Sequence record: OR594183
Strand: one strand, 5' to 3'
From: Escherichia phage vB_EcoM_SHAK7858
Length of the DNA stretch: 44,517 nt
The notes under the pieces are model-generated. The model was not told the DNA's origin and made no database searches. It saw nothing but the letters and a program-made list of their open reading frames with translations. The position numbers were made by a program, and so were the translations under genes. Of the stretch, positions 37,795 to 41,621 are shown piece after piece; the first letter of the stretch is position 1, and the number at the start of each line of letters is the position of its first letter.

Positions 37795-37828
37795 CAGGTC
37801 AATAGTTTACTATTTGGCTTTGTGACTT

Positions 37829-37866
37829 ACGCTGCTACACAGCAGCGTATCATTTTTCTCATTTTT
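37829..37866 (+). terminator. Rho-independent terminator
   Basis: acgctgct-acac-agcagcgt followed by atcatttttctcattttt. Confidence 0.6.
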
Positions 37867-39381: not shown

Positions 39382-39566
39382 TTATGGTGCAGAGATATAC
39401 CTACGACCAGATATTCGGGTTTACTCCTGATGTTGAGGGCGTGTTAGTGCTTTACGAAGATTACGCGAAACTTGAAGCTGAGTTACAGAAATACAAAGAC
39501 CAGTACCCTGATTACGTCGAGTGCGCGAACTGTGGGTCGGTTACACATGTGGAGGGGGTGGAGTGA
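39378..39566 (+). CDS. Hypothetical small protein (62 aa)
   Basis: ORF with CANCG motif. Confidence 0.4.
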   Translation: MIMVQRYTYDQIFGFTPDVEGVLVLYEDYAKLEAELQKYKDQYPDYVECANCGSVTHVEGVE

Positions 39567-39859
39567 TGTCGTTAGCAACTGACATCCTGAAACGAAGCGG
39601 CCTTGCGCCGCTGTCACCGAGAGCGAAGACACGTATACACAAGCGTCGCCGTAACGTGCTGTACCCAGAGATACAAGAACGGCGTAAAGCTATCCGCGCC
39701 TGTGGATTCCAGAACGGAAAGGCCGTGAATCTAGGAGAGTTTAAAACACAGGAACGCGCGGCAATCGCTAATCGGTTATTTAATTACTGGAAATCGCTCG
39801 GATACGATGATATTCCGACTAAACCGCAGAGACGACAATACATCTGGCGTCATAAATAA
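39566..39859 (+). CDS. Hypothetical basic protein (97 aa)
   Basis: ORF with SD ggaggggg; start chosen at the ATG rather than the earlier track start. Confidence 0.4.
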   Translation: MSLATDILKRSGLAPLSPRAKTRIHKRRRNVLYPEIQERRKAIRACGFQNGKAVNLGEFKTQERAAIANRLFNYWKSLGYDDIPTKPQRRQYIWRHK

Positions 39860-39889
39860 ACCGTTATTAAGATAATTCCTAACCGTGCT

Positions 39890-39929
39890 ATCCTCCAGTT
39901 ACTGCATACTTAATACGCACCTGGAGGAT
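39890..39929 (+). promoter_or_regulatory. Perfect 9-bp inverted repeat (atcctccag ... ctggaggat) whose 3' arm contains the holin Shine-Dalgarno
   Basis: Arms separated by 22 nt; GGAGGA lies in the 3' arm, 6 nt before the TTG start at 39935. Confidence 0.45.
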
Positions 39930-39934
39930 TCATC

Positions 39935-40243
39935 TTGGATAAATTTACTGAAACAGTGACGGGGTGGCTTCTCGCTGCCGCATTAGCTGGTGGGGTAATA
40001 GGCTTACGGCAACACAAAGCCACTATTACCGGCCCTGTAGATGCTCTCTGTTTTCTCGCCACTGGCTTTGCGTGCGCCGTATTCGGTGCGCCTCTCGCCG
40101 CTCAATGGTTCGGTATCGCAGGTGAACGCGAAATAGCGGGCCTTGGATTCATCATTGCTATTCTCTGGATGCCAATTTATTCACGTCTCTCTGGCATTGT
40201 CGCTGGAGAATACATCGCACGTCGCGGAGGTGGTAATGAATGA
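39935..40243 (+). CDS. Holin (three predicted TM segments), TTG start
   Basis: 102 aa with three hydrophobic helices and a charged C-terminus; precedes a second membrane protein and the lysozyme. Confidence 0.55.
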   Translation: MDKFTETVTGWLLAAALAGGVIGLRQHKATITGPVDALCFLATGFACAVFGAPLAAQWFGIAGEREIAGLGFIIAILWMPIYSRLSGIVAGEYIARRGGGNE

Positions 40244-40508
40244 GTTATTCTGGTTTGGTGGTATGCTCGCAATCGGGAGCACATCGCTGTTTAACGTATA
40301 CCACCCCAGCGTAGATGATGGCCTGTTCGGGCGTGTGCTTTATATTCTGACTGCTATTGTCTGCGCCGCCGGATGTATCCACCTGTTACAGGGCAGCATG
40401 TCACCTACGCTGCCTGAGACATTAATTACATTAGTTGCGCTGCGTCAGATTCGTCAGGCGTGGCTGTCGTACGGAGGACATAAGCGTGTCTCGAAACATT
40501 TCAGATAA
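40236..40508 (+). CDS. Small membrane protein (second holin or antiholin-like component)
   Basis: Two hydrophobic helices; ATGAATGA overlap with the holin stop; SD ggagg. Confidence 0.45.
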   Translation: MNELFWFGGMLAIGSTSLFNVYHPSVDDGLFGRVLYILTAIVCAAGCIHLLQGSMSPTLPETLITLVALRQIRQAWLSYGGHKRVSKHFR

Positions 40509-41001
40509 TGGACTTAGCCATGACTATGTTCGTAGCGTTTTAGAATACAACCCTGACACAGGATTATTCACGTGGCTTAAGACGGTTAGTTCAAAAGCCC
40601 CTAAAGGGACTGTGCCTGACGGGATAGACCCGGACGGGTATAAAGTAATCATGCTCAAAGGTAAATACCTACGGCAACACAGGCTTGCATGGTTTTATAT
40701 GACCGGAGAGTGGCCGATAGGGCAGATAGACCACCGGAACGGGGTAAGAGACGATAATAGGTTTTGTAACCTGAGAGAATGTGATTCGCAGGATAACAAC
40801 CGCAACCGTGGGCTGTCGCGCAACAACACCAGTGGGGTATCAGGAGTCCATAGACAGCAAGGGAAATGGATGGTAAGAATCCGTTTGCAAAAAGGTGTGC
40901 GCAAGTTTTTCGGTTACTTCGATGACCTTGAGTTCGCTGAGTTAGTAGCTAGCGAAGCCCGAGATAAATATCACAAGGAGTTCTCTTTATGCGCTCGATG
41001 A
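40486..41001 (+). CDS. HNH homing endonuclease with AP2-like DNA-binding domain, GTG start
   Basis: QHRLAW...IDHRNG..DDNR..NLRECD..NNRN HNH core followed by GVSGVHRQQGKWMVRIRLQKGVRKFFGYFDD; SD ggagg 8 nt before the GTG. Confidence 0.8.
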   Translation: MSRNISDNGLSHDYVRSVLEYNPDTGLFTWLKTVSSKAPKGTVPDGIDPDGYKVIMLKGKYLRQHRLAWFYMTGEWPIGQIDHRNGVRDDNRFCNLRECDSQDNNRNRGLSRNNTSGVSGVHRQQGKWMVRIRLQKGVRKFFGYFDDLEFAELVASEARDKYHKEFSLCAR

Positions 41002-41474
41002 GTGACAACGGCCTCAAGTTTACTGCGGCTTGGGAAGATTTCCGTGGGACCGCCTACCGCGCGACACCTTCGGAAAAATACTTAACCATAGGCTACGGAA
41101 GCTATGGCCCTCATGTGTATGAAGGACAGACCATCACACCAGGGCAAGGCCTCCTGTTACTGAATCGTGATATGGCTAAAGCCGTTGCTGCGGTCGATGC
41201 GGCAGCACACCATTCGCTTACACAGGCGCAGTTCGACGCTGTGTGTGACCTGGTATACAACGCAGGTGCTGGTGTGATTGCTGCTACTACCGGCACGGGT
41301 AAGGCACTGCGTTCTGGTGATATTGCAACGCTGCGGGCTAAGCTGGCGCTGTTCATCAACCAGAACGGCAAACCGTTACTAGGCCTGCGTCGCCGTACCG
41401 CCGGTCGTCTGGCGCTGTTCGACGGTAAACCGTGGCAAGAGGCAGAGGCTATCGGGCGCGCGGTGAAAGGTTGA
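40989..41474 (+). CDS. Endolysin, lysozyme-type muramidase
   Basis: N-terminal catalytic pattern (E in WEDF, D/T, TIGYG) reminiscent of phage lysozymes; SD aaggag; terminator downstream. Confidence 0.7.
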   Translation: MRSMSDNGLKFTAAWEDFRGTAYRATPSEKYLTIGYGSYGPHVYEGQTITPGQGLLLLNRDMAKAVAAVDAAAHHSLTQAQFDAVCDLVYNAGAGVIAATTGTGKALRSGDIATLRAKLALFINQNGKPLLGLRRRTAGRLALFDGKPWQEAEAIGRAVKG

Positions 41475-41540
41475 CACCTAAGACTAATCCGACGATACTT
41501 AAATCACCTCCTGCTCCATCCCTCTGCTCTCCAGTTTTAT

Positions 41541-41592: not shown

Positions 41593-41621
41593 TTGACTAT
41601 TATCCTCGACCCTATTATATT
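41593..41621 (+). promoter_or_regulatory. Sigma70-like promoter (TTGACT-N17-TATATT) carrying two CTATTAT half-sites
   Basis: Hexamers and spacing; followed by an acaacgagaacggag leader. Confidence 0.45.

What the first reader, a model, noticed from the sequence alone, without database searches (positions are those of the whole stretch)
39890..39937. Holin translation start buried in a perfect 9-bp inverted repeat and using TTG
The holin SD (GGAGGA) lies within the 3' arm of a perfect inverted repeat (atcctccag / ctggaggat, 22-nt spacer), and the only well-placed start codon is TTG. Both features would damp and possibly regulate holin translation, a plausible lysis-timing device. The repeat could alternatively be a protein-binding operator.
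Basis: seen in the sequence. Interest (0 to 1): 0.5.

Follow-up and report, generated by a model that had tools for sequence, protein, structure and literature searches.

The report
Hairpin-guarded holin start with embedded promoter
A conserved RNA hairpin hides the ribosome-binding site of this phage's first lysis gene (which starts with the weak codon TTG), and a promoter-like sequence sits on the hairpin's first arm, so the gene is probably silent on transcripts coming from upstream and translated only from its own transcript, a safety design already known from phage T4.

Summary
ATCCTCCAG (39890-39898) and CTGGAGGAT (39921-39929) form a perfect 9-bp inverted repeat. The GGAGGA Shine-Dalgarno (39924-39929) lies in the 3' arm, and TTG (39935) is the only usable start of a phrog_2359 holin in a Kagunavirus lysis cassette.

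A 9-bp repeat alone is not above chance (8 in the window, about 5 expected). What makes it real is comparison. The block 39885-39959 is the least variable stretch of the region. Four other holin lineages carry a hairpin of different sequence at the same place, with compensatory changes and G-U pairs only on the + strand.

In three sister lineages the hairpin is called terminator-like (a fourth has a U-rich tail but was not called). In all 18 element variants an extended -10 motif (TGnTAnnnT; here TGcTATCCT, 39886-39894) overlaps the 5' arm, so a transcript started there (about 39901) would lack that arm.

Best model, at about 0.5 confidence: a T4 gene e-like insulator. Read-through RNA is translationally blocked, and in sister lineages terminated. 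Promoter-proximal RNA is open, and TTG tunes the rate. The start site is not mapped. This is a new member of a known kind, of moderate interest.

The parts
39857..39885 (+). Upstream edge of the conserved block. It holds a weak candidate -35 (TTAAGA, 39867-39872, 16-nt spacer to the -10) and a variable spacer.
   Evidence: Conservation begins at AAAC even where the upstream gene is replaced. TTATTAAGATA is also kept in non-coding DNA of lineage L147. Spacer positions vary. The -35 assignment is inference.
39886..39894 (+). Extended -10-like motif TGcTATCCT (TG 39886-39887, hexamer TATCCT 39889-39894). This is the candidate lysis-cassette promoter.
   Evidence: TGnTAnnnT is present in all 18 distinct element variants from about 150 loci in 5 lineages. 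T1 G2 T4 A5 T9 are invariant columns while the n positions vary. One Dhillonvirus variant has the perfect TGaTATAAT at the cost of a stem pair. The tool calls TTCAGA-18-TATAGT with TG in L103. Promoter activity is not shown.
39890..39898 (+). 5' arm of the hairpin (ATCCTCCAG, an anti-SD mimic). It overlaps the last 5 nt of the -10 hexamer.
39899..39920 (+). 22-nt loop. It contains the predicted transcription start (about 39900-39904, A39901) and would form the 5' UTR of the promoter-proximal mRNA.
   Evidence: The TSS is inferred from the usual 6-10 nt distance from the -10 (established knowledge). The loop is nearly invariant within Kagunavirus but differs in LSPA1, L004 and L147.
39921..39929 (+). 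3' arm of the hairpin (CTGGAGGAT), containing the Shine-Dalgarno GGAGGA (39924-39929).
   Evidence: P(unpaired) is about 0.01 in read-through RNA and 0.3-0.6 in RNA starting at 39899-39903.
39930..39934 (+). SD-start spacer TCATC. It is a degenerate U-rich tail (UUCAUCUU counting flanking bases).
   Evidence: The T-tail score is 1.5-2.3 here against 2.7-4.1 in sister lineages. It is not called a terminator in the window.
39935..40243 (+). Holin 1 (102 aa, phrog_2359, 3 predicted TM segments) with a TTG start at 39935-39937. The first 25 nt are as conserved as the leader.
40236..40508 (+). Holin 2 / antiholin candidate (90 aa, phrog_2508). Its ATG overlaps the end of holin 1 by 8 nt.
40989..41474 (+). 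Endolysin (Phage_lysozyme, PF00959), the last gene of the cassette.
39566..39859 (+). Last gene of the upstream + strand operon (phrog_9632, function unknown). Its transcripts would read into the hairpin.
   Evidence: No + strand terminator-like site lies between 37849 and the hairpin.

Best explanation
The 75-nt gap before the holin gene is a compact junction between two transcription units and works like the phage T4 lysozyme (gene e) control. Shown by computation: on any RNA that contains both arms, i.e. transcripts reading in from the upstream small-gene operon, the 9-bp hairpin forms and buries the GGAGGA Shine-Dalgarno. Inferred consequence: the holin is not translated from those RNAs. 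In three sister lineages the homologous hairpin is called terminator-like and would probably also stop those transcripts. In this phage the U-tail has decayed and the loop is long, so the block is mainly translational. Inferred: an extended -10 promoter (TGcTATCCT, 39886-39894) overlaps the 5' arm. RNA polymerase starting there (about A39901) makes an mRNA that lacks the 5' arm, so its SD is open and the holin, the second holin and the endolysin are translated. The TTG start, paired here with a strong SD, sets a low initiation rate suited to a protein whose accumulation times lysis.
For: The hairpin is real and stable, and the SD is occluded in context. The holin initiation region is the 4th most occluded of 82 genes in the near-identical phage Bas72, and TTG is used by 3 of 82 genes. 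Diversity across 53 distinct relatives is 0.01-0.03 over 39885-39959, against 0.1-0.27 in the holin CDS and 0.3-0.6 upstream. Five holin lineages (Kagunavirus, L147, Dhillonvirus/HK578, L103, L104; 39-81% protein identity to the window holin, and 66% for L147) each have a hairpin of different sequence ending 5-7 nt before the start codon. On a hand-anchored alignment 90% of cells pair, against 29-48% when slid, and 10 of 13 pairs change on both sides. One-sided changes give G-U on the + strand. TGnTAnnnT is invariant in all 18 variants, with variation only at the n positions. A variant with perfect TATAAT sacrifices a stem pair. The predicted start lies at or beyond the 3' end of the 5' arm in every lineage, and the truncated RNAs have P(unpaired) of 0.35-0.6 for the SD window. 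The terminator-like call holds for HK578, L103 and L147. No + strand terminator separates the upstream operon from the hairpin. The precedent is documented for T4 genes e, soc, 49 and I-TevI (PMC3014915).
Against: No transcription start site, promoter activity or termination has been measured for any of these phages. The one Kagunavirus RNA-seq study is too coarse and gives no per-gene table. The window's -10 hexamer TATCCT is only 4/6 and its -35 is weak, so the generic promoter scan did not call it. TGnTAnnnT with at least 4/6 occurs about 30 times on both strands of the window by chance. The five lineages are homologous, so the shared motif is conservation, not independent recurrence. The structural alignment was fitted by hand to the hairpin. 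If the promoter is constitutive it would not by itself delay holin synthesis. Folding of the truncated RNA depends on the chosen 3' end: the SD window is 0.35 unpaired and the start codon 0.01 unpaired in one construct.
Confidence: 0.5

Rival explanations
1. Constant translational damper. Every holin mRNA carries both arms. The hairpin plus TTG simply keeps holin synthesis low, and lysis timing follows from slow accumulation.
For: The hairpin and TTG are real and conserved. Lambda S is known to use RNA structure at its start to tune holin translation (established knowledge). SD strength and start codon look compensated across lineages: GGAGGA or GGGGGA with TTG, and GGGA or GGGG with ATG.
Against: Hairpins of -14 to -24 kcal/mol over the only SD, with no upstream ORF close enough to unwind them (the stop is at 39859, 31 nt before the arm), would repress translation very strongly. 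This view does not explain the invariant TGnTAnnnT over the 5' arm. It also does not explain the variant that improves the -10 while weakening the stem.
Confidence: 0.2
2. The element is mainly an intrinsic terminator or attenuator ending the upstream operon. The SD overlap is a by-product of a compact genome, and the lysis genes are expressed by read-through or antitermination.
For: The homologous hairpins in HK578, L103 and L147 are called terminator-like, with U-runs directly before the start codon. L104 has TTTATT. Promoter-terminator overlap is reported as common in bacteria (bioRxiv 10.64898/2026.08.19.745784).
Against: In the window lineage the loop is 22 nt and the T-tail score is 1.5-2.3, and the scan does not call it. 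Read-through RNA would still have its SD buried. No antiterminator is known here. The geometry in the cited preprint (-10 downstream of the T-tract) differs from this element.
Confidence: 0.15
3. The element is a trans-controlled RNA switch. A late phage factor (protein or RNA) or a condition such as temperature opens the hairpin to start holin translation.
For: The 22-nt loop and the first 25 nt of the CDS are almost invariant within Kagunavirus. A 7-nt upstream segment (39865-39871) is complementary to the loop (39909-39915), with one compensatory change in LSPA1.
Against: The loop is not conserved in L147, Dhillonvirus, L103 or L104. The upstream-loop pairing is broken in the L004 type and absent in L147. 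There is no Rfam match and no second copy or antisense partner in the window.
Confidence: 0.07
4. The inverted repeat is a DNA operator bound by a dimeric phage regulator.
For: It is a perfect palindromic pair overlapping a promoter-like -10. The genome encodes annotated transcriptional regulators.
Against: Arm spacing varies from 3-7 to 22 nt and arm lengths from 9 to 13 bp between lineages. The substitutions keep RNA pairing, including G-U that is strand-specific. A 22-bp centre gap is atypical for an operator.
Confidence: 0.03

Closest known systems
Phage T4 gene e (lysozyme) translational control; also T4 soc, 49 and I-TevI (McPheeters et al. 1986; reviewed in PMC3014915)
   Same: A lysis gene lies downstream of earlier transcription units. 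Long transcripts form a hairpin that sequesters the Shine-Dalgarno or start. A promoter lies in the DNA encoding the 5' strand of that hairpin, so its transcripts lack the inhibitory arm and are translated.
   Different: T4 uses gp55-dependent late promoters (TATAAATA). Here the motif is a host sigma70-type extended -10. The guarded gene is the holin, not the endolysin. In sister lineages the same hairpin also looks like an intrinsic terminator. Nothing here has been tested experimentally.
Lambda S (and P22 gene 13) holin start region: the sdi stem-loop and dual-start motif
   Same: RNA secondary structure at the ribosome-binding site of a holin gene sets how much, and which, product is made and so affects lysis timing.
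   Different: There is no dual start here. The N-terminus is MDKFTE, and the next in-frame start-type codon is codon 8 without an SD. The hairpin covers the single SD rather than choosing between two starts. A separate second holin/antiholin gene follows.
IS10 / IS50 'fold-back inhibition' of read-through transcripts (Davis, Simons and Kleckner 1985; Schulz and Reznikoff 1991; cited from my own knowledge)
   Same: Transcripts entering from outside contain a 5' segment that pairs with the ribosome-binding site. Transcripts from the element's own promoter start inside the pairing region and are translatable.
   Different: It occurs in a transposase gene rather than a phage lysis gene, and it has no terminator-like U-run.
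Promoter-coupled intrinsic terminators in bacteria (Fletcher et al. 2026 preprint)
   Same: One short intergenic element serves both as the end of one transcription unit and the start of the next, with shared bases.
   Different: In that work the -10 lies just downstream of the T-tract and the stem DNA acts as the -35. Here the -10 lies upstream and overlaps the 5' arm, and the 3' arm is the SD.

Membership tests
T4 gene e-type promoter-in-hairpin translational insulator | A hairpin sequesters the SD or start on transcripts initiated upstream. | tested here: met
   MFE is -15.6 kcal/mol. P(unpaired) of the SD is about 0.01 in 76-191 nt read-through contexts. The same holds in all five lineages. 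This is computational only.
T4 gene e-type promoter-in-hairpin translational insulator | A promoter is placed so that its transcripts begin inside or after the 5' arm. | tested here: inconclusive
   An invariant TGnTAnnnT overlaps the 5' arm in 18 of 18 variants. The predicted +1 is at or beyond the arm's 3' end. However, the window hexamer is only 4/6, the generic scan does not call it, and no TSS data exist.
T4 gene e-type promoter-in-hairpin translational insulator | Upstream transcription actually reads into the gene. | not testable with these tools
   The gene order is co-directional, and no + strand terminator-like site lies between 37849 and 39890. This is indirect evidence only.
T4 gene e-type promoter-in-hairpin translational insulator | The long transcript is translated far less than the short one. 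| not testable with these tools
   This needs reporter fusions or toeprinting.
Intrinsic (Rho-independent) terminator | A G+C-rich stem, a short loop (3-8 nt) and a U-run directly after the stem. | tested here: not met
   The window is not called: the loop is 22 nt, the tail is UCAUCUU and the T-score is 1.5-2.3. The feature is met in the sister lineages HK578, L103 and L147.
Lambda S-type dual-start holin with sdi structure | Two in-frame start codons separated by one or two codons that include a basic residue, giving holin and antiholin from one gene. | tested here: not met
   The translation is MDKFTETVTGW. There is no second Met/Val/Leu start codon near the N-terminus, and there is a stop 8 codons upstream.
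Holin (phrog_2359) | A small membrane protein encoded next to an endolysin that matches a holin family profile. | tested here: met
   phrog_2359 matches at E = 3.7e-29 over residues 1-96. A curated relative has 3 TM segments by TMHMM. Holin 2 and the endolysin are adjacent. There is no Pfam hit. Function is by annotation only.
Palindromic DNA operator | Fixed half-site spacing and sequence conserved for protein contacts. | tested here: not met
   Spacing is 22, 14, 7, 6 and 3-7 nt in different lineages. The arms differ but stay complementary, with strand-specific G-U pairs.

The most novel reading that the evidence does not exclude
The hairpin is not merely bypassed by an internal promoter but is an actively opened lysis timer. 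In this reading a late phage factor, or the conserved 22-nt loop pairing with the upstream segment 39865-39871, remodels the RNA to release the holin SD at a set time. That would be a new RNA-level clock for lysis in T1-like siphoviruses.
Probability: 0.07. Interest if true: 0.65.

Novelty: new member of a known kind. Interest (0 to 1): 0.35.

Why it matters
Premature holin synthesis kills the host before progeny are made, so phages must keep lysis genes silent on early transcripts. If the model holds, a whole group of widely used therapeutic-candidate coliphages (Kagunavirus, Dhillonvirus and relatives) solves this problem with the same logic as T4 gene e. The difference is that they build it from a host-type extended -10 promoter, a terminator-like hairpin and the ribosome-binding site, all packed into about 50 nt.

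There are two practical points. First, the TTG start causes this holin to be missed in several GenBank records. Second, the element is a ready-made, portable 'read-through-proof' expression insulator that could be tested directly.

Tried and rejected
- **Second copy in the window.** A search for a second copy of the 75-nt element or a shared phage promoter motif found only chance matches of 10 nt or less. Extended -10 motifs are rare in the other intergenic gaps.
- **Rfam.** No match.
- **Prophage or bacterial copies.** None found in genome contigs.
- **RNAalifold on a plain MAFFT alignment.** It gave no structure, because the arms are out of register between lineages. I replaced it with a hand-anchored, N-padded alignment, with the caveat that this alignment is fitted to the hairpin.
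- **Lambda Q-like module.** I considered an upstream -10 (GATAAT, 39871-39876), a sigma-dependent pause at TATCCT and then a terminator. I rejected it because GATAAT is lost in L147 and weakened in some Kagunavirus variants (GATAAA, GATGAT).
- **Pseudoknot between 39865-39871 and the loop 39909-39915.** There is one compensatory change (LSPA1), but the pairing is broken in the L004 type and absent in L147, so this is left open.
- **Published Kagunavirus papers.** They contain only in-silico promoter and terminator lists, or coarse RNA-seq without per-gene data.
- **Wider protein search.** It found only 23 clusters, so no further lineages were available.

Full report
**Where we are.** The window is a Kagunavirus (Guernseyvirinae, K1G-like siphovirus). 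The 800 bases around the finding match 131 phage records, mostly Escherichia phages, at 85-98% identity. The finding lies in the 75-nt gap in front of the lysis cassette. That cassette holds four genes:
- holin 1, 39935-40243 (phrog_2359);
- holin 2, 40236-40508 (phrog_2508);
- an inserted HNH endonuclease, 40486-41001;
- the endolysin, 40989-41474 (PF00959).

Upstream is a co-directional run of small genes of unknown function. The last of these ends at 39859.

**The observation.** It is correct to the base. ATCCTCCAG (39890-39898) and CTGGAGGAT (39921-39929) are perfectly complementary with 22 nt between them. GGAGGA (39924-39929) is inside the 3' arm, 5 nt before TTG (39935).

An in-frame TAA at 39911-39913 rules out any earlier start. 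The next start-type codon, GTG at codon 8, has no Shine-Dalgarno.

As RNA the hairpin has an MFE of -15.6 kcal/mol (z = -2.9). It survives in 76-191 nt contexts with the SD about 99% paired.

A perfect 9-bp inverted repeat is not rare in itself. The window has 8 with 3-30 nt spacers, against 5.0 +/- 2.9 in shuffles. In the near-identical phage Bas72 the holin initiation region is the 4th most occluded of 82 genes, and only 3 of 82 genes use TTG.

**The start codon.** All 54 distinct Kagunavirus-type contexts I collected have TTG. The homologous Dhillonvirus holins begin with ATG at the aligned codon (MDKL.. against MDKF..). Two further lineages (L147, L104) again use TTG at the homologous position. 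The PHROG holin profile aligns from residue 1. Curated records annotate this RBS and start. I therefore take TTG as settled on comparative grounds.

**Conservation.** Among 53 distinct relatives, nucleotide diversity by segment is as follows:
- 39885-39959: 0.01-0.03;
- the rest of the holin gene: 0.1-0.27;
- upstream, where the preceding gene is even replaced in many phages: 0.3-0.6.

Within the block the variable sites are informative:
- The base between TG and TATCCT switches between C and G.
- A few spacer bases vary.
- One arm position shows A to G on the left (giving G-U) in some genomes, and T to C on the right (giving A-C) in one.

**Other lineages.** Homology searches gave four more holin lineages. 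Protein identity to the window holin is 39-81% among the aligned representatives and 66% for L147. The sources were the IMG/VR scans, one metagenome scan and one protein search. The lineages are Dhillonvirus (HK578-like), L103, L104 and L147.

Each has a hairpin of different sequence ending 5-7 nt before the start codon, with its 3' arm purine-rich:

| Lineage | 5' arm / 3' arm | Bases before the start codon | Start |
|---|---|---|---|
| HK578 | AGTCCCAGTGAG / CTTACTGGGACT | TTTTT | ATG |
| L103 | CCCCAGTGAGGT / ATCTTACTGGGG | CTTTTTT | ATG |
| L104 | ATCCCCCGTG / CACGGGGGAT | TTTATT | TTG |
| L147 | ATCCTCTGGTCGT / GTGGCTGGAGGAT | TTATT | TTG |

On a hand-anchored alignment of 15 variants, 90% of cells pair, against 29-48% when the partner is slid. 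Ten of 13 pairs show changes on both sides. That alignment was fitted to the hairpin by me, which favours it.

The non-Watson-Crick pairs are G-U on the + strand. Loop length ranges from 3-7 to 22 nt. Both facts point to an RNA structure on the + strand transcript rather than a protein-binding DNA palindrome.

1. In HK578, L103 and L147 the hairpin plus U-run is called terminator-like by the scan. L104 was not called, but its hairpin is followed by TTTATT. The window version is not called. Its loop is 22 nt and its tail is UCAUCUU, with a T-tail score of 1.5-2.3 against 2.7-4.1 in the others.
2. Every one of the 18 distinct element variants carries TGnTAnnnT overlapping the 5' arm. The versions are:
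   - TGcTATCCT or TGgTATCCT in Kagunavirus and L147;
   - TGaTATAGT or TGaTATAAT in Dhillonvirus and L103;
   - TGtTAATAT in L104.

In a plain MAFFT alignment the invariant columns include exactly T, G, T, A and T of that motif. The rest include a C directly after it, G positions in the SD region and the TG of the start codon. These five are the positions that define an extended -10 sigma70 promoter (established knowledge).

One Dhillonvirus variant has the perfect TGaTATAAT, obtained by a change that breaks a stem pair. In L103 the scan calls a full promoter, TTCAGA-18-TATAGT with TG.

**The consequence.** A transcript started the usual 6-10 nt after the -10 would begin at 39900-39904. That is just past the 5' arm. 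The same geometry holds in all lineages, although stems are 9-13 bp and shifted relative to the -10. Such RNAs cannot form the hairpin. Their SD window is 0.35-0.6 unpaired, against about 0.1 or less in read-through RNA.

The upstream operon has no + strand terminator-like site between 37849 and the hairpin. Its transcripts should therefore run into the element.

**Interpretation.** This is the logic documented for T4 gene e (lysozyme), soc, 49 and I-TevI. [quoted passage not shown] Late promoters in the DNA encoding the 5' strand give RNA without the inhibitory arm (PMC3014915).

I therefore read the element as a read-through insulator for the lysis cassette. In the sister lineages it would act by termination plus SD sequestration. 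In this phage it would act mainly by SD sequestration. An embedded promoter supplies the translatable mRNA, and TTG sets a modest initiation rate.

There is a small supporting pattern. Lineages with a strong SD (GGAGGA, GGGGGA) use TTG, and those with a weak one (GGGA, GGGG) use ATG. With only five lineages this is weak.

**What is shown and what is inferred.**

Shown by computation and comparison:
- the repeat, its stability and its covariation;
- the TTG start;
- the terminator-like form in three sister lineages;
- the invariant extended -10-like motif and its geometry.

Inferred:
- that the motif is an active promoter, its start site and its timing;
- that upstream transcripts reach the hairpin;
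- the size of the translational effect.

No start-site data exist. The two genome papers give only software predictions. The one Kagunavirus RNA-seq study is too coarse.

**Rivals.**
It leaves the -10 motif unexplained, and it implies near-complete repression by hairpins of -14 to -24 kcal/mol.
- A pure terminator fits the sister lineages better than this one.
- A trans-opened switch is suggested only by the very conserved loop and a weakly supported upstream-loop complementarity.
- A DNA operator fits the variable spacing and the G-U pattern poorly.

**Verdict.** The element is best filed as a new, untested member of the known 'promoter inside an SD-sequestering hairpin' design. Here it guards a holin in T1-like siphoviruses. 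Interest is moderate.

Noticed in passing
window 40486-41001: An HNH homing-endonuclease gene (PF13392, phrog_99; GTG start with SD GGAGGA at 40473-40478) is inserted between holin 2 and the endolysin. It overlaps the end of holin 2 by 23 nt and the start of the endolysin by 13 nt. It is present in phage DUEC01 but absent from Schulenburg, K1G and LSPA1, where holin 2 overlaps the endolysin directly.
   Followed up: partly
L043 1201-1509 (Salmonella phage LSPA1, NC_026017); also ST20, phiWAO78-1 and Henuyfy11N: The TTG-start holin 1 is not annotated in several GenBank records. Only the ATG-start second holin is called, probably because gene callers missed the TTG start behind the hairpin.
   Followed up: partly
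window 39865-39871 and 39909-39915: TATTAAG upstream is perfectly complementary to CTTAATA in the hairpin loop, a pseudoknot-like arrangement. LSPA1 has TATTAGG / CCTAATA (compensatory) and many phages have TATTAGG / CTTAATA (G-U). The L004 type breaks one pair and L147 lacks the pairing.
   Followed up: partly
window about 39560-39860, compared with L004, L006, L012 and others: The gene just upstream of the element is swapped between relatives: a small phrog_9632 protein here, an HslV-family peptidase or ATP-dependent protease in others. The junction is at about 39857-39860, where the conserved block starts, so the element marks a mosaic boundary.
   Followed up: partly
window 39935-39959 and 39947-39961: The first 25 nt of the holin CDS are as invariant as the leader, synonymous sites included. 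A small hairpin, TTACTG-AAA-CAGTGA, lies 12 nt after the start. TTACTG also occurs at 39899-39904, so alternative pairings are possible.
   Followed up: no
window 41471-41499 and 41593-41621: Two near-consensus sigma70 promoter-like sites (TTGACA-17-GATACT and TTGACT-17-TATATT) lie directly after the endolysin, in front of another run of small genes. The lysis cassette is thus an island between two early-looking gene clusters.
   Followed up: no
L147 1501-2313: In this Jerseyvirus-like lineage the holin 1 homologue is followed directly by the endolysin. No second holin gene was called between them.
   Followed up: no
window 37828-37849: A perfect 9-bp hairpin with a 4-nt loop and a T-rich tail (TACGCTGCT-ACAC-AGCAGCGTA TCATTTTTCT) lies on the + strand in a 207-nt gap. 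It is likely the terminator that separates the first rightward small-gene cluster from the operon leading to the holin.
   Followed up: no
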